Positions 29,296 through 56,174 of a stretch of DNA of 64,000 bases are shown piece after piece. The stretch lies in NCBI RefSeq assembly GCF_009914755.1, contig NC_060938.1, one strand, 5' to 3'. The stretch is from the human T2T-CHM13v2.0 reference genome, Homo sapiens. The notes under the pieces were generated by a model. It worked only from the letters and a program-made list of their open reading frames with translations, was not told the DNA's origin and did no database searches. A program made the position numbers and the translations under genes. Every line of letters begins with the position of its first letter. The stretch's first letter is position 1.

Positions 29296-31511
29296 GATAG
29301 CACCTCTGCAAATTATATACAACATTTTCCTTCTTTATTATTATGATTATTTAATACTTAAAGACACTAACGGTCTTAGTGATAAAGCTAAGGGGCAAGT
29401 TCTGATAGATTTGTTAATGAAAGCAGAATGCTTGACATTATGCCTCTGCCATTCGGGCAATCATATTTGCATATGTTTCAGAAAAGCACTTATATATAAC
29501 TCTAATAATAACAGAGCCAGGTACAAATATAAAAAGGTGAAAGCTTTGATTAGTTTCTATAAGGTTTTAACTTGATCTCAGACCTGAGGAATATTAATGG
29601 CTATTTTTGTTTTCTGCTCTTGCCCATTGCTCCCATAATAAGCAATTGTATGCTCATTGATTTATTTGACTTTGTCAGAGATTTATCTCCATAGACTGAT
29701 AAATTTTCCCAATTTGGGAGAAAGGGGAGCTTCCTGTACCATGAGTGACTAATAGGCAAGAAAGAGGGACAGAGAGGAGAGAGAAACATACCTTTCTCTT
29801 GGACAACTTTACTTCCTTCTCTTTATCAGCATTATTTACTAGAACCAAGATAAACAGTCAGCCCAGGTGAACTTCTGGGAGCCTAATGGACTGCATGGCA
29901 ATGCCTCATTGTTCTAGCAAAGGAAAGCTATGGTAGAACCAGCACAGGAATTGGAGGGAATGGGGGCACAGATTGGAGGGAATGGGGGCACAGAAACATA
30001 AATGGAGACTGAATGATGGGGTGGGGGGAGACGAAAGGAATGATGAATAAGAGAAGGTCAAGTCTAAATCTAAGCTTGGGAATTTTGATCCAATGTCAGG
30101 TAGGCTTTGGAATCCAGAGGCTTTTAAGTTTTAGAGAAACAAGGATGGGACAATTAGGTGGAGTAGTGTCCTTCAAGAAAATCTTTCCTTTCTAAACATG
30201 AGGTGAAAGAAGAGCAAGGACAAAAACCCAGTCTTCAGAGAAATCAGCTGACTGAACCGAGACCAAATAGCAGCCTCCAGTCCATGATTCAAGGAGAGGG
30301 CAAGACTATATTGGCTGGCACTGATGCCTTGTTGGGTTGAAGGAGAGACCCAGGTATTCAAGGGCACTACACAGAAGGAGACAAGAAGATGAAAGGAACT
30401 CTTAAATTTATTGAGCATCTAATATTCTATTTAATTCTTGCAGCAATCCTGGGAGCACCCTTAACACAAATGTTTAATGTTTTGGTCAAGATCAGGAATT
30501 TAACAGACGGAGGATTTAGATTTGTCTGTCTCTAAAATCCATGTTCTTTTTTAAATGCCATTTTGAGAATTCTCAGAGATTGTTGCCCAATACTCTTCCA
30601 TAAATTGAGGAATAAAGAAGACTAAGATATTCCCCAAACTTGATGACTTGCCCCATGAGAACTATCGATTTAAGTCCCACAAGCCTCTGTGTTAGTTCAC
30701 AGAGGGAAGAGGAAGCCTATGGGTAGATAGGGAGATGCCCAGGGGAGAATGAAGGATGGTTCTGCTCCATTGTCCAGAATCTCAGTTTGCTTTGTTCCAG
30801 ATTAACTCCAGGTGGCCTGATACTGTGTACTGATGACCACAGCAACCTTCCAAAGGATCCACAGGAGCCTAATAGCCTTCAAAGGAAGCATCACAATATA
30901 GCATGAGAATATGCCCAATGTTGAAACTGATCAGGAAAAAGCAAGTGAAATTAATCATTATATACTTAAAAAAAAATGAAACTAAGTAAATATCCATTCA
31001 CAAAGGAGGAGTTAAACAAATCACAGGGCATTTTTCCCTTTACAAAGCCAATTAAAAAGGTGGTTGAATTAATTATACTTCCATGGATGGATATCCAGGA
31101 TGTATTGAGTGCAAAAAGCAAGTTAATAAGAACAACAAAAATGATATACCTATGTGCTCATATACCTCTGTGTGACACAGAGAAAGGCCAGGAAGAACAT
31201 GTATCCTTTAATGGTTATTTTGGGGGAAGAGAAGGTGGAATGGGGAAGGAGTAGAGCAGTGACTTTTGCTCTTCATGCATTTCTGCATGGTTTGAATTTT
31301 GGGAAGAAAACTGAGCATTTATTACTGTTATAATATAAAATAAACCCAACACAAAAGTGAATAGTCAGTAGAATACAACTATCTTTCTGAGCCAGAGGCA
31401 GAGAATGATGACTTAAGGTCATGGATGATTCTGTATCAGCATCTAATTCAGAAATACAGACGCATGCTGAAATCTGCTCCAGTTAGGAGATCCAAAAAAA
31501 TCTGCTCCAGG

Positions 31512-32370
31512 AGAAAAAACAAACAACCCCATCAAAAAGTGGGTGATGCATATGAACAGGCACTTCTCAAAAGAAGACATTTATGCAGCCAACAAACATG
31601 AAAAAAGGCTCATCATCACCGGTCATTAGAGAAATGCAAATCAAAACCACGATGAGACACCATCTCACACCAGTTAGAATGGCGATCATTAAAAAGTCAG
31701 GAAACAACAGATGCTAGAGAGGATGTGGAGAAATAGGAACACTATTACACTGTTGGTGGGAGTGAAAATTAGTTCAAGCATTGTGGAAGACAGTGTGGTG
31801 ATTCCTCAAGGATCTAGAACCAGAAATACTATTTGACCCAGCAATCCCATTACTGGGTATATACCCAAAGGATTATAAATCATTCTACTATAAAGAAACA
31901 TGCACATGTATGTTTGTTGCAGCACTATTCACAATAGCGAAGACTTGGAACCAACCCAAATGCCCATCAATGATAGACTGGATAAAGAAAATGTGGTACA
32001 TATATACCATGGAATATTATGCAGTCATAAAGAAGAATGAGTTAGTGTCCTTTGCAGGGACATGGATGAAGCTGGAAACCATCATTCTCAGCAAACTAAT
32101 ACAGGAACAGAAAACCAAACACTGCATGTTCTCACTCATAAGTGGGAGGTGAAAAATGAGAACACATGGACACAGGGAGGGGAACATTACACACTGGGGC
32201 CTGTCAGGGGGTGGGGGGCAAGGGGAGGGATAGCATTAGGAGAAATACCTAATGTAGATGATGGGTTGATGGGTGCAGCAAACCACCATGGCACGTGTAT
32301 ACCTATGTAACAAACCTGCATGTTCTGAACATGTATCCTAGAACTTAAAGTATCATTTAAAAAAAAAAAA
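31512..32370 (+). mobile_element. 5'-truncated L1PA7-like element carrying a 3' transduction
   Basis: ORF2 C-terminus (AKTWNQPKCPSMIDWIKKMW), L1PA7 3'UTR, A12; the matching TSD copy lies about 600 bp further downstream. Confidence 0.93.
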
Positions 32371-32801
32371 GAGACATAAATGAATGTATGTAAGATATAC
32401 ATTGGTTCATCCCATAAAGGCATGACATCTCAAAGTAGTGATGTGGGGGGCTTCCACCTTATAGATGGATTTAAAGATTTCCTGAATTATAATTGGTTGA
32501 AAGGGTTAAACTCCACCTGAAGGAGTGAAGTTAGCAGAAAGAAATGTTTATTGTTAAGATAAGGGGGCTTGTGGAAGCCAGGGGTCTTGTTGTGTAGATG
32601 AAGCCTCCAGGTAGCAGGCATTAGATAGAATAAATGATAAATGTCTCTTATCAGACTCTAAAAGGTGCTCCAGACTCTTAATTAAATCTCTCCTGGACGA
32701 GGAAAAGACCAGGAAAACGAATCTGATTTTTCTACAGAATGTAGATTTTCCCTACAAGAGACAGCTTTGTGAGGCCATATCAAAATATGTCATAAAATAT
32801 A
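32371..32801 (-). mobile_element. MER4D/E-type LTR, upstream segment, inverted
   Basis: Reverse complement reads gacatattttga...aagctgtctcttgtagggaaaatctacattctgtaga...ctgctacctggaggcttcatctaca...accaatgtatatcttacat...tatgtctc. Confidence 0.8.
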
Positions 32802-32947
32802 TCTCTGCCTGTAACTTCTGTCCCCCTAAAATGTTTAAAAAAAAATGTAACCCAACTACCTTGGGCACATGTTCTCAGGGTCTCCTGGGGCTATATCATG
32901 GGTCATGGATCTTACATTTATCTCAGAATAAATCTCTTCAAATATTT
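32802..32947 (+). mobile_element. MER4D/E-type LTR, downstream segment, sense, ending at the LTR polyA site
   Basis: tctctgcctgtaacttctgtccccctaaaatg...accttgggcacatgttctcagg...aataaa (32927-32932) then polyA from 32948. Confidence 0.82.
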
Positions 32948-32978
<31 letters not shown>

Positions 32979-33820
32979 AAAACCTGCTCCAGGCAGAACT
33001 GCAGCCAGTAGAACAGGAATCCATTTTTTTCTGCATTCCAGTGTACTTCAGCCAGTGTTCTTAGTGGCATTATCTATTACTCAGCAATTCCTTTAACTCT
33101 GAACCTCAGGTTGACCTCTTGTTTTTCCCCTGAAACAATTTTTAAATGCTTTTTTGTTCCCATCAATTTACATTTTAATGTTTACTGGGTTCATGACACT
33201 GTTAGATTCTTTGTAATAGGTGCTAAAATGTATGTAAAATTTCTTCAATTTTTTTCAAAGATAAATACAAGGCAATGCCTCTTAGAAGGTTATAATCAAA
33301 CCAGATGTCATTGGCATGTAGTATATGCATGTAATGAAATTCAGAAAATACTGTAAAAACATTAATTTTCCCCCAATTTTATATATAGTTGATTTTCTTT
33401 CATTTATTTTTGAAGAAAAATAAGGGTTAGGAGGAAGATATGGAAGAGATCAGAGAGGTAAACAGAAGAGAGAAAAGTAAGCAGGAGGATTATGAAAAAT
33501 GGTAAGAGATTGAGAGATGAGATAGCATCAGTGAAATTTTGTCTGGACCTACACACCCTTTCAAGCTCATGAGTGGTGCCACAATGCAACTGGCATCCTG
33601 TGAAAGCAAGCCTTGAACTCTACTGCATAACTCTCTGTATGGGTCCTGAACCACTTTATCTAACCTCTTTCCTGTTCTGCAACTTGGTTTGCTTCAATCC
33701 CTCATGCTTCTGATCACTAGATTTACTTTCCTATTTTTAGCCTAACCTCATATCTTGGAATTGACATGTGGTGTTTATGACATCTACTCTCATCCTTAAC
33801 TAGGGTTCAGAGTTCTCCTG

Positions 33821-52681: not shown

Positions 52682-55600
52682 GGGATTCCCAGGCAAGATG
52701 GCCAAATAGGAACAGCTCCGGTCTGCAGCTCCCAGTGAGACTGATGAAGAAGGAGGGTGATTTCTGCATTTCCAACTGAGGTACCAGGTTCATCTCACTG
52801 GGACTAGATTGACACTGGGTGCAGCCCACGAAGGGCAAGCAGAAGCAGGGTGGGGTGTTGCCTCACCCGGGAAGTGCAAGGGGTCAGGGAACTCCTTCCC
52901 CTAGCCAAGGAAAGCCATGAGGGACTGTGCCATGAGGAACAGTGCATTCTGGCCCAGATACTATGCTTTTCCCACAGTCTTCGTAACCCACAGACCAGTA
53001 GGTTTCCTCGGGTGCCTGTGCCACCAGGGACCTGGGTTTCAAGCACAAACTGGGCTGCCTTTTGGGCAGACACTAATCTAGCTGCAGGAGTTTTTTTTCA
53101 TATCCCAGTGATGCGTGGAATGCCAGCAAGACAGAACCATTCACTCCCCTGGAAAGGGAACTGAAGCCAGGGAGCCAAGTGGTCTTGCTCAGTGGATCAC
53201 ACCCACACAGAGTCCAGCAAGCTAAGATCCACTGGCTTGAAATTCTTGCTGCCAGCACAGCAGTCTAGAGTTGACCTGGGATGCTGGAGCTTGGTGGGGG
53301 GAGGGGCCCCCGCCATTGCTGAGGTTTGAGTAGGCAGTATTCCCCTCACAGTTTAAACAAAGCCGCCTGGAAATTTGGACAGGGCGGAGCACACCACAGC
53401 ACCACAAAGCCGCTGTAGCCAGACTGCCACTCTAGATTCCACCTCTCTGGGCAGGACATCTCTGAAAGAAAGGCAGCAGCCCCAGTCAGGGGCTTATAGA
53501 TAAAACTCCCATCTCCCTGGGGACAGAGCACTTGGGGGAAGGGGTGGCTGTGGGTGCAGCTTCAGCAGACTTAAACATTCCTGCCTGCCAGAACTGAAGA
53601 GAGCAGAGGATCTCACAGACAGTGCTTGAGCTCCGCTAAGGGACAGGCTGTCTCTTCAAGTGGGGTCCCTGAACCCCGTGCCTCCTGATGGGAGACACCT
53701 CCCAGCAGGAATCGACAGACACCTCATACAGGAGAGCTCTGGCTGGCATCTGGCGGGTGCCTTTCTGGGAAGAAGCTTCCAGAGGAAAGAGCACGTAGCA
53801 ATCTTTGGTGTTCTGTAACCTCTGCTGGTGATACCCAGGCAAACAGGGTCTGGAGTGAACCCCCAGCGAACTCCAGAAGACCTGCAGAAGAGGGGCCTGA
53901 CTGTTAGAAGGAAAACTAACAAACAGAAATCAATAGCATCAACATCAACAAAAAGGATGACCACGCAAAATTTCCATCTGAAGGTCACCAACAGCAAAGA
54001 CCAAAGGTAGATAAATCCATGAAGATGAGGAAAAACCAGCACAAAAAGGCTGAAAATTCCAAAATCCACAATGCCTCTTCTCCAAAGGGTCACAACTCCT
54101 CACCAGCAAGGGAACAAGACTGGATGGAGAATGAGTATGACAAATTGACAGAAGTTGGCTTCAGAAGGTGGGTAATAACAAACTCCTCCAAGCTAAAGGA
54201 GCATGTTCTAACCCAATGCAAGGAAGCTAAGAACCTTGACAAAAGGTTAGAGGAATTGCTAACTAGAATAACCAGTTTAGAGAAGAACATAAATGACCTG
54301 ATGGAGCTGAAAAACACAGCACGAGAACTTTGTGAAGCATACACAAGTATCAATAGCCGAATTGATCAAGCAGAAGAAAGGATATCAGAGATTGAAGATC
54401 AACTTAATGAAATAAAGCATGAGGGCAAGATTAGGGAAAAAAGAATGAAAAGGAAAGAACAAAGCCCCCAAGGAATATGGGACTACATGAAAAGATGAAA
54501 GAGAGGACACAAACACATAGGAAAACATTCCCTGCTTATAGATAGGAAGAATCAATATCGTGAAAATGGCCATACTGCCCAAAGTAATTTATAGATTCAA
54601 TGCTATCCACATCAATCTACCACTGACTTTCTTCAGAAAACTAGAAAAAACTACTTTAAATTTTATATGGAACTAAAAAAGAGCCTGTATAGCCAAGACA
54701 ATCCTAAGCCAAAAGAACAAAGCTGGAGGCGTTATGCTACCTGACTTCAAACTATACTACCAGGCTACAGTAACCAAAACAGCATGGTACTGTTACGCAA
54801 ACAGATATATAGACCAATGGAACAGAACAGAGGCCTCAGAAATAATGCCATACATCTACAACTATCTGATCTTTGACGAACTTGACAAAAACAAGCAATG
54901 GGGAAAGAATTCTCTATTTAATAAATGGTGTTGGGAAAACCGGCTAGCCATATGCAGAAAACTGAAATTGGACCCCTTCCTTACACATTATACAAAAATT
55001 AACTCAAGATGGATTAAAGACTTAAACATAAGACCTAACACCATAAACACCCTAGAAGAAAACCTAGGCAATACCATTCAGGACATAGGCATGGGCAAAG
55101 ACGTCATGACTAAAATACCAAAAGCAATGGCAACAAAAGCCAAAATAGACAAATGGGATCTAATTAAACTAAAGAGCTTCTGCACAGAAAAAGAAACTGT
55201 CATCAGTGTGAACAGGCAACCTATAGAATGGGAGAAAGTTTTTGCAATCTATCCATTTGACAAAGGGCTAATATCCAGAATCTACAAGGAACTTAAACAA
55301 GTTTACAAGAAAAAAAAATCCATCAGAAAGTGGATGAAGGATATGAACAGGCAGTTTTCAAAAGAAGACATTTATGTGGCCAATAAACATGAGAAAAAGC
55401 TCATCATCACTGGTCACTAGAGAAATGCAAATCAAAACCACAATGAGATACCACCTCACGCCAGTTAGAATGGTGATCATTAAAAAGTCAGGAAACAACA
55501 GATGCTGGAGAGGATGTGGAGAAATAGGAATGCTTTTACGCTGTTGGTGGGAGTGAAAATTAGTTCAACCATTGTGGAAGACAGTGTGGCGATTCCTCAA

Positions 55601-56174
55601 GGATCTAGAACCAGAAATACCATTTGACCCAGCAATCCCATTACTGGGTATATACCCCCAAAATTATAAATCATTCTCCTATAAAGACACATGCACATGT
55701 ATGTATATTGTGGCACTATTCACAATAGCAAAAACTTGGAACCAACCCAAATGTCCATCAATGATAGACTGGATTAAGAAAATGTGGCACATATACACCA
55801 TGGAATACTATGCAGCCATAATAAAGGATGAGTTCATGTCCTTTGCAGGGACATGGATGAAGCTGGAAACCATCATTTTCAGCAAACTAATACAGGAACA
55901 GGAAACCAAACACTGCATGTTCTCACTCATAAGTGGGAGTTGAACAATGAGAACACATGGACACAGGGAGGGAAACATCACACACTGGGCCTGCTGGGGG
56001 ATGGGGGCAAGGGGAGGGATAGCATTAGGAGAAATACCTAATGTAGATGACGGGTTGATGAGTGCAGCAAACCACCATGGCACATGTATACCTATGTAAC
56101 AAACCTGCACGTTCTGCACATGTATCCCAGAACTTAAAGTATATTAAAAACAACAACAAGAAAAATAACAACAA
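52682..56174 (+). mobile_element. L1PA7-like element with full 5'UTR, ORF1 5' half and ~3-kb internal deletion
   Basis: ggcaagatggcc start, ORF1 N-terminus, jump into late ORF2 at about 54495, L1PA7 3'UTR; TSD aaaaacactgg at 52662-52672 and 56175-56185. Confidence 0.95.
54019..54498 (+). pseudogene. Truncated L1 ORF1p (N-terminal region plus coiled coil only), open 159-codon frame
   Basis: MRKNQHKKAENSK...LEKNINDLMELKN...RIDQAEERISEIED...IWDYMKR*; the stop lies at the deletion junction. Confidence 0.9.

What the first reader, a model, noticed from the sequence alone, without database searches (positions are those of the whole stretch)
31494..32993. Single TSD-flanked insertion: L1 plus a 3'-transduced MER4 LTR with a precise internal inversion and LTR-directed polyadenylation
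Seen: TSD aaaaaaa(t/c)ctgctccagg at 31494-31511 and 32976-32993 encloses the L1PA7 3' end (+), A12, ~430 bp of MER4-type LTR (-), ~145 bp of the same LTR type (+), AATAAA (32927) and a second polyA 15 nt later. The two LTR pieces are contiguous in the family consensus as I recall it (...tatgtctc / tctctgcctgtaac..., sharing tctc), so one segment is flipped starting right at the L1 A tail. The target sequence caggcaga (32990-32997) is the reverse complement of tctgcctg at the breakpoint (32804-32811). Established: L1 read-through gives 3' transductions, and twin priming gives 5' inversions primed by target microhomology, but normally the inverted part abuts the 5' TSD. A sense-inverted-sense layout is atypical. 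Inference: either a transduction from an L1 sitting in a MER4 LTR with a multi-priming integration or later inversion, or a twin-primed orphan retrocopy that gained an L1 piece at its 5' junction. The LTR tag should identify the source L1.
Basis: partly seen in the sequence, partly recalled or inferred. Interest (0 to 1): 0.8.

Follow-up and report, generated by a model that had tools for sequence, protein, structure and literature searches.

The report
Young LTR retrocopy inside old L1 tail
This is two ordinary retrotransposition events stacked on one another: an old L1 fragment, and a much younger inverted copy of an LTR-terminated RNA from chromosome 1 that landed in the L1's A tail.

Summary
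The sequence features are real. These are the 17/18 TSD, the L1 3' end, A12, a 435-nt inverted and a 146-nt direct LTR piece, AATAAA, and a poly(A) run 15 nt after it.

The single-insertion reading does not hold.
- Both LTR pieces match one solitary LTR on chr1 (T2T chr1:72,528,680-72,529,255), where they are contiguous. They differ from it at 4 of 581 positions.
- That source has no L1 3'-end homology within about 10 kb on either side.
- The L1 piece has no close source in the genome: its best hits are 91-93% identical. It differs from the majority state of its 20 nearest copies at 38 of 843 positions, like any fossil of its subfamily.

So the L1 and the 18-nt TSD date to roughly 27-45 Myr ago, and the LTR piece arrived roughly 1-9 Myr ago.

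The LTR piece has textbook twin-priming geometry. The inverted 5' part abuts the A12, which is its presumptive all-A target duplication. There is a 2-5 nt overlap at the priming point and a 3-nt microhomology at the internal junction. It ends at the LTR family's conserved AATAAA site.

The 3' tail is a pure A16 followed by an interrupted old-style tail, as nesting predicts.

This is an ordinary kind of event and of low interest. An ape or macaque allele with the L1 but without the LTR piece would confirm it.

The parts
31494..31511 (+). 5' copy of the 18-nt target-site duplication of the old L1 insertion
   Evidence: 17/18 identical to 32976-32993. The pair is unique in the window. It abuts the L1 truncation point.
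31512..32358 (+). 5'-truncated L1 3' end (847 nt: end of ORF2 plus 3' UTR), an old resident element
   Evidence: 39 genomic copies at 91-93% over the full length. It differs at 38 of 843 positions from the majority of its 20 nearest copies, which themselves score 4.2-5.6%. The 3' end is complete.
32359..32370 (+). A12: the proximal part of the old L1 A tail. It is the presumptive left (all-A) target duplication and the top-strand primer of the second insertion.
   Evidence: Read directly. The role is inferred. The last A is ambiguous with the LTR sequence, because the chr1 match starts at 32370.
32371..32804 (-). Inverted (internally primed) cDNA of the chr1 LTR-terminated RNA
   Evidence: 99.3% to chr1:72528821-72529255, with 3 differences in 435 nt.
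32802..32804 (.). 3-nt microhomology at the inverted/direct junction (7 nt, 32798-32804, if one mismatch is allowed)
   Evidence: Both chr1 alignments cover these bases.
32802..32947 (+). Direct (poly(A)-primed) cDNA of the same RNA, ending at the cleavage site
   Evidence: 1 difference in 146 nt to the chr1 minus strand. It continues the inverted piece in chr1 with a 2-5 nt overlap.
32927..32932 (+). AATAAA, the LTR family's poly(A) signal
   Evidence: The hexamer is kept in 9 of 15 covered family copies, of 18 examined.
32948..32963 (+). Pure A16: the retrocopy's poly(A) tail plus its presumptive right all-A target duplication
   Evidence: Read directly. The split between tail and duplication cannot be resolved.
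32964..32975 (+). G-interrupted distal remainder of the old L1 A tail
   Evidence: Similar interrupted tails occur in other copies of this L1 subfamily, e.g. L026, L036 and L042.
32976..32993 (+). 3' copy of the old L1's target-site duplication

Best explanation
Two nested L1-driven insertions of very different age.

(1) About 27-45 Myr ago a 5'-truncated L1 (847 nt plus A tail) inserted by target-primed reverse transcription at a T7/GG site. This made the 18-nt TSD.

(2) About 1-9 Myr ago an RNA ran through a solitary LTR on chr1 (LTR sense = chr1 minus strand). It was cleaved about 15 nt after that LTR's AATAAA and copied in trans by the L1 machinery into the old L1's A tail. The A tail presents T-run/AAA endonuclease sites on the bottom strand.

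The bottom-strand T run primed on the poly(A), giving the direct 146-nt cDNA. The cut top strand, ending in the A12, primed internally on the same RNA, giving the inverted 434-nt cDNA (twin priming). The two cDNA 3' ends were joined at a 3-nt microhomology.

Shown: the source locus, the contiguity of the two pieces, the overlap, the microhomology, the poly(A)-site end, the age gap, and the absence of an L1 at the source.

Inferred: the exact nick positions, that the A12 is the retrocopy's target duplication, and that twin priming rather than a later inversion made the flip.

The structure has no evident present function.
For: Source:
- chr1:72528680-72529255 matches both pieces at 99%. All other family copies match at 74-80% (72 matches; 40 of 2846 first-look candidates were scored).
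- The chr1 element is a complete family member of roughly 850 bp. The copied part runs from at least 244 nt inside it to about 26 nt before its end.
- It is solitary: no second copy lies in chr1:72519000-72538999.

Direction and age:
- There are 4 differences in 581 nt. By 18 family copies, 2 are derived on chr14 and 2 on chr1.
- That gives 0.69% in total (95% range 0.19-1.76%), or 0.6-8.8 Myr at 0.10-0.17% per Myr per lineage (the rates are recalled).

L1 is old and has no source:
- Its best non-self hit is 93% identical.
- It is 4.5% from the majority of its 20 nearest copies.
- Fisher test against the LTR piece: p = 2.8e-7.

No L1 at the source: the whole composite gives only the two LTR hits against 20 kb of chr1.

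Tail architecture: a pure A16 followed by a G-interrupted run. Other fossils of this L1 subfamily have tails of the same interrupted type.

Geometry matches published twin priming. In 46% of 287 inverted L1 insertions the two cDNAs start and end within 20 bp of each other. In 41% of those they overlap. 13% of 23 processed pseudogenes were twin-primed (PMC12016303, section 8 and Table 1 passages read).

The AATAAA is the family's conserved hexamer.
Against: - No orthologous primate or alternative human allele could be examined, so the predicted intermediate (L1 present, LTR piece absent) was not seen.
- The second insertion's own target duplication consists only of A's, so it cannot be demonstrated.
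- If the A12 is that duplication, only about 4 A's remain for the new poly(A) tail.
- The A-run primer shares at most 1 nt with the RNA at the internal priming point.
- The 8-nt complementarity between the right flank and the priming point (about 2% by shuffling) has no role in this model.
- The L1 search scored only 40 of 13351 candidates. A near-identical L1 source is unlikely to have been missed, but this is not formally excluded.
Confidence: 0.85

Rival explanations
1. A single insertion event. Either an L1 read through into an adjacent LTR (3' transduction), or the reverse transcriptase switched template from the LTR RNA to an L1 RNA tail (chimeric retrocopy). In either case there was an extra priming or inversion step, and one TSD encloses everything.
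For: One good 18-nt TSD encloses the whole composite and no second non-A duplication is visible. The A12 between the L1 and the LTR is what a source L1's genomic tail, or a switch onto a poly(A) tail, would leave. The 8-nt flank complementarity at the priming point could reflect one concerted event.
Against: - No L1 3'-end homology within about 10 kb on either side of the only 99% source.
- The L1 piece is 4.5% diverged and has no hit above 93%, while the LTR piece is 0.7% from its source. An L1 active at that date would have many near-identical copies.
- The tail carries three G interruptions and the TSD one mismatch. Both are unlikely in an insertion this young.
- It needs three unusual steps where the nested reading needs two ordinary ones.
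Confidence: 0.05
2. Two events as in the best explanation, but the retrocopy went in uninverted. Its 5' 434 nt were flipped later at the DNA level, by replication template switching or break repair.
For: The flipped segment is bounded by a short inverted repeat, 2-5 nt. Microhomology-mediated inversions leave this kind of mark.
Against: The flip starts exactly at the retrocopy's 5' edge. It has the overlap and microhomology pattern typical of twin priming (PMC12016303 section 8). A later inversion would have to place one breakpoint exactly at the A12 boundary by chance.
Confidence: 0.05
3. The composite (old L1 tail plus twin-primed LTR copy) formed at a third locus. It was then retrocopied or duplicated as a unit to chr14, and the intermediate has been lost from this genome.
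For: It would reconcile a single enclosing TSD with an old-looking L1.
Against: No third locus carries the LTR pieces above 80% or the L1 piece above 93%. It needs two young events plus a loss. The TSD mismatch and the interrupted tail still point to an old TSD.
Confidence: 0.03
4. No RNA intermediate: chr1 LTR DNA was copied into a break in the L1 A tail by templated repair synthesis in two inverted patches. The A run after it is simply the old tail.
For: Under nesting, the downstream A run is not by itself proof of a poly(A) tail.
Against: The copy ends 15 nt after the family's conserved AATAAA. A random breakpoint would fall in such a position only about 1-2% of the time (my estimate). The pure A16 ahead of the interrupted tail fits an added poly(A).
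Confidence: 0.02

Closest known systems
Twin-primed (5'-inverted) L1-mediated insertions (Ostertag and Kazazian 2001, recalled and not held; described in PMC12016303, passages and section 8 read)
   Same: An inverted 5' cDNA next to the left target edge and a direct 3' cDNA ending in poly(A). The two meet within a few nt in RNA coordinates with a small overlap, and there is short microhomology at the internal junction.
   Different: The template is not L1 but a host read-through RNA ending in a solitary LTR. The target is the A tail of an older L1, so the target duplication is invisible.
Processed pseudogenes and non-coding retrocopies made in trans by L1, including HERV-W processed pseudogenes (PMC5537654, abstract and passages read)
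   Same: An RNA copy ending at the poly(A) site inside an LTR, lacking the part of the LTR beyond it, and followed by an A tail.
   Different: The source is a solitary LTR with no partner LTR within about 10 kb, not a provirus. It is one copy, not a family. That review calls HERV-W the sole HERV group mobilised by L1, so this is a one-off by-product rather than ERV mobilisation.
L1 3' transduction and orphan transduction (Moran et al. 1999, recalled; cited in the reference list of PMC3812793)
   Same: An L1 3' end, an A stretch, foreign sequence, a downstream AATAAA and a second poly(A), all inside one TSD. The layout mimics a transduction.
   Different: The source locus has no L1 upstream, and the L1 and the 'tag' differ about tenfold in divergence.
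Nested retrotransposon insertions into pre-existing elements and A-rich microsatellites (PMC12016303 discussion passages; PMC3812793 passage)
   Same: A new L1-mediated insertion inside an older L1, at an A/T-rich stretch that suits the L1 endonuclease.
   Different: Nothing essential. This is one example of the kind.
Chimeric retrocopies by reverse-transcriptase template switching (U6-L1 type; Buzdin et al., recalled; PMC4476161 seen in a search listing only)
   Same: Two unrelated RNA-derived parts inside one TSD.
   Different: Such chimeras have both parts in one orientation and of one age. Here one part is inverted and the ages differ.

Membership tests
L1 3' transduction | The source locus carries the L1 directly upstream of the transduced segment | tested here: not met
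   The composite gives only the two LTR hits against chr1:72519000-72538999 and no L1 3'-end homology.
L1 3' transduction | The L1 part and the transduced part arrived together, so they have equal age and both are close to the source | tested here: not met
   L1: 38/843 from the subfamily majority and best genomic hit 93%. LTR piece: 4/581 from its source. Fisher p = 2.8e-7.
L1 3' transduction | One TSD encloses the L1 and the tag, with a downstream poly(A) signal and a second A tail | tested here: met
   These features are equally expected under nesting in the L1 tail.
Twin-primed L1-mediated retrocopy | The inverted 5' segment and the direct 3' segment are contiguous in the template, with a small overlap or gap | tested here: met
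   The chr1 alignments abut with a 2-5 nt overlap, 9 nt by BLAST with one mismatch.
Twin-primed L1-mediated retrocopy | The 3' end lies at a cleavage site after AAUAAA and is followed by poly(A) | tested here: met
   AATAAA at 32927-32932, and the copy ends at 32947, 15 nt later. chr1 continues with non-A sequence.
Twin-primed L1-mediated retrocopy | Microhomology at the junction of the two cDNAs | tested here: met
   3 nt at 32802-32804 are shared by both alignments.
Twin-primed L1-mediated retrocopy | Its own target-site duplication and an L1 endonuclease site | tested here: inconclusive
   The flanks are A12 and A16. An all-A duplication is compatible but cannot be told apart from tail. A T-run/AAA site exists on the bottom strand at the L1 end.
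HERV-type processed pseudogene | The template is a proviral transcript (R-U5 ... U3-R) | tested here: not met
   No second LTR copy in 20 kb around the source. Also, 3 kb upstream shares nothing with the flanks of 18 family loci.
   No repeat library is on hand. Only family-level facts were obtained: 74-80% LTR copies and 91-93% L1 copies.

The most novel reading that the evidence does not exclude
The 8-nt complementarity between the right flank (32990-32997) and the exact RNA position where the inverted cDNA began may not be chance. On this reading, the LTR RNA was held at the break by pairing with flank DNA some 30 nt beyond the nick. That pairing fixed where the A-run top strand primed. Target-flank pairing at a distance would then be able to choose the twin-priming site.
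Probability: 0.07. Interest if true: 0.45.

Novelty: new member of a known kind. Interest (0 to 1): 0.15.

Why it matters
Mainly as a caution. A young retrocopy nested in the A tail of an old L1 imitates a 3' transduction with an odd internal inversion, because the old element's TSD seems to enclose both. Dating the parts separately resolves it.

Two smaller points follow. It shows that the poly(A) site of one solitary LTR on chr1 was used in the germ line or early embryo within roughly the last 1-9 Myr. It also gives a young presence/absence marker that may be specific to hominines or to humans.

Tried and rejected
- 3' transduction from an L1 next to the source LTR: rejected, because no L1 lies within about 10 kb on either side.
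- A near-identical L1 source anywhere in the genome: none found, best hit 93% (40 of 13351 candidates scored).
- A third locus carrying the composite: none found.
- A proviral rather than solitary source: rejected.
- My first thought that the inverted piece ends at the LTR's 5' terminus: wrong. Family homology continues at least 244 nt further upstream in chr1.
- L1 inserted after the LTR copy: rejected on age, and because no duplication flanks the L1 alone.
- Presence/absence polymorphism: a look-up of coordinate prefixes in the 3 held supplement files of PMC12350158 found nothing. This is uninformative, because the full call set is probably not in those files, and the two hg38 prefixes rested on a recalled gene coordinate.
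- The original twin-priming paper is not held.
Full report
**What is there**

- An 18-nt direct repeat sits at 31494-31511 and 32976-32993, identical at 17 of 18 positions. It occurs nowhere else in the 64-kb window within one mismatch, on either strand.
- Between the two copies lie, in order:
  - an L1 3' end (31512-32358, + strand);
  - A12 (32359-32370);
  - 434-435 nt of an LTR-type repeat in antisense (32370/71-32804);
  - 146 nt of the same repeat in sense (32802-32947), with AATAAA at 32927-32932;
  - a pure A16 (32948-32963), starting 15 nt after that hexamer;
  - a G-interrupted A-rich stretch (32964-32975) that runs into the second repeat copy.

**The source of the LTR pieces**

I searched the window's own genome with 32372-32945 (72 matches; 40 of 2846 first-look candidates were scored).
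- One locus stands out: chr1:72528682-72529255. It matches both pieces at 99%. Every other copy of the family matches at 72-87%, and the long first-piece matches fall at 74-80%.
- BLAST against that locus pairs window 32370-32804 with the chr1 + strand (99.3% of 435 nt). It pairs window 32798-32947 with the chr1 - strand (98.7% of 150 nt).
- On chr1 the two stretches abut. The flipped piece and the direct piece are therefore one contiguous segment of an LTR whose sense strand is the chr1 minus strand.
- By the coordinates, 32 of the 39 non-self loci scored show the same abutting arrangement.
- Comparison of the chr1 locus with 18 family loci shows that the family element there is about 850 bp long. 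Homology continues at least 244 nt upstream of the copied part and about 26 nt past its 3' end.
- So the copy is an internal-to-near-3'-end segment. Its 5' limit is a truncation, not the LTR edge.
- No second LTR copy lies in chr1:72519000-72538999, and 3 kb upstream shares nothing with the flanks of other family loci. The source is a solitary LTR.
- chr1 continues with non-A sequence after the point where the window copy turns into A's.
- The AATAAA is retained in 9 of 15 covered family copies (18 examined; 3 were not covered; the other 6 differ by a substitution or gaps).
- The copy therefore ends at the family's own poly(A) site, which points to an RNA intermediate.

**Junctions**

- The inverted piece starts, next to the A12, at the base that in chr1 directly precedes the direct piece. 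Between 2 and 5 nt are present in both orientations, or 9 nt by BLAST with one mismatch.
- The far end of the inverted piece meets the direct piece at 3 shared nt (32802-32804), or 7 nt with one mismatch.
- This is the geometry of twin priming: a poly(A)-primed direct cDNA and an internally primed inverted cDNA. They start within a few nt of each other on the RNA and are joined at their 3' ends by microhomology.
- A long-read survey (PMC12016303; passages, Table 1 and section 8 read) gives the background rates.
  - In 46% of 287 inverted L1 insertions the two cDNAs lie within 20 bp of each other.
  - In 41% of those (54 of 132) they overlap.
  - 13% of 23 processed pseudogenes were twin-primed.

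**Is the L1 part of the same event? The evidence says no.**

- The source has no L1. The whole composite (window 31400-33100) gives only the two LTR hits against 20 kb of chr1.
- The L1 piece has no close relative. Its best non-self hits are 91-93% identical over the full 847 nt (40 of 13351 candidates scored). A 99% copy would be expected to rank first, as the chr1 LTR did.
- I aligned the L1 piece with its 20 best hits. It differs from the majority of the others at 38 of 843 positions (4.5%). The 20 others score 4.2-5.6% by the same measure. It is therefore an average fossil of its subfamily.
- The LTR piece differs from chr1 at 4 of 581 positions. By the family copies, 2 of these are derived on chr14 and 2 on chr1.
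- 38/843 against 2/581 gives Fisher p = 2.8e-7.
- With recalled neutral rates of 0.10-0.17% per Myr per lineage, the L1 dates to about 27-45 Myr. The LTR copy dates to about 2-3.4 Myr, with an outer 95% range of 0.6-8.8 Myr.
- The tail after the LTR piece is a pure A16 followed by a stretch with three G interruptions. Other fossils of this L1 subfamily carry interrupted tails of the same kind, e.g. L026, L036 and L042.
- One mismatch in the 18-nt TSD also fits an old duplication better than a young one.

**Best explanation (confidence 0.85)**

- The 18-nt TSD and the L1 belong to an old, ordinary, 5'-truncated L1 insertion.
- Much later, an RNA that read through the chr1 solitary LTR and was polyadenylated at its AATAAA was copied in trans by the L1 machinery into the old L1's A tail.
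- On the bottom strand that tail is a T run followed by AAA at the L1 end, close to the endonuclease's preferred site.
- The A12 is then the left edge of the second insertion, and probably its all-A target duplication. It was also the top-strand primer for the inverted cDNA.
- With that reading, the inverted part abuts its own left target edge, as in any twin-primed insertion. The 'sense-inverted-sense' puzzle disappears.

**What this leaves open**

- The predicted L1-only allele could not be looked for. No primate genomes are on hand, and a look-up in one population paper's held supplements found nothing (uninformative).
- The all-A duplication cannot be demonstrated.
- The 8-nt flank complementarity at the priming point occurs in only 35 of 2000 shuffles. 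It has no role in the model. I treat it as a post hoc coincidence but record it as unexplained.

**Rivals**

- A single concerted event (transduction or template-switch chimera plus inversion): 0.05.
- Insertion followed by a later DNA-level inversion: 0.05.
- A composite copied from a lost third locus: 0.03.
- DNA-templated repair without RNA: 0.02.

**Comparison with known kinds**

- The layout mimics an L1 3' transduction but fails two defining tests: an L1 at the source, and equal age of the parts.
- It meets the testable criteria of a twin-primed, L1-mediated retrocopy.
- It resembles HERV-W processed pseudogenes in ending at the LTR poly(A) site (PMC5537654, abstract and passages read). 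But it comes from a solitary LTR and is a single copy.
- Nested insertion into older elements and A-rich tracts is well described (PMC12016303 discussion passages; PMC3812793 passage).
- The names L1PA7 and MER4 could not be checked without a repeat library.

**Verdict**

Noticed in passing
window 31470-31482 and 31498-31510: The 13-nt core of the 5' TSD copy occurs once more, exactly, 28 nt upstream in the left flank (family D1). A small pre-existing duplication in the target seems likely. Its origin is unknown.
   Followed up: no
window 32990-32997 versus 32804-32811: An 8-nt reverse-complement match between the right flank and the inversion junction / internal priming point. It was reached in 35 of 2000 flank shuffles. 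The nested model does not explain it.
   Followed up: partly
window 55312-56142: Another 3' end of the same L1 subfamily, 92% identical to the L1 piece. It appears as G000:C14:19337312-19338142.
   Followed up: no
window 32350-32358: The L1 piece's terminal bases differ from all 20 close relatives. Nine of the 20 end GTATAATAA, which with the tail gives the L1's own AATAAA. The window copy has lost that hexamer.
   Followed up: no
L002 (chr1 source), minus strand: 2205-2199 and 1331-1325; also about 2201-2155: The same 7-mer lies just outside both ends of the solitary LTR and may be its own target duplication. The LTR's 5' edge carries a near-tandem duplicate of about 23 nt.
   Followed up: no
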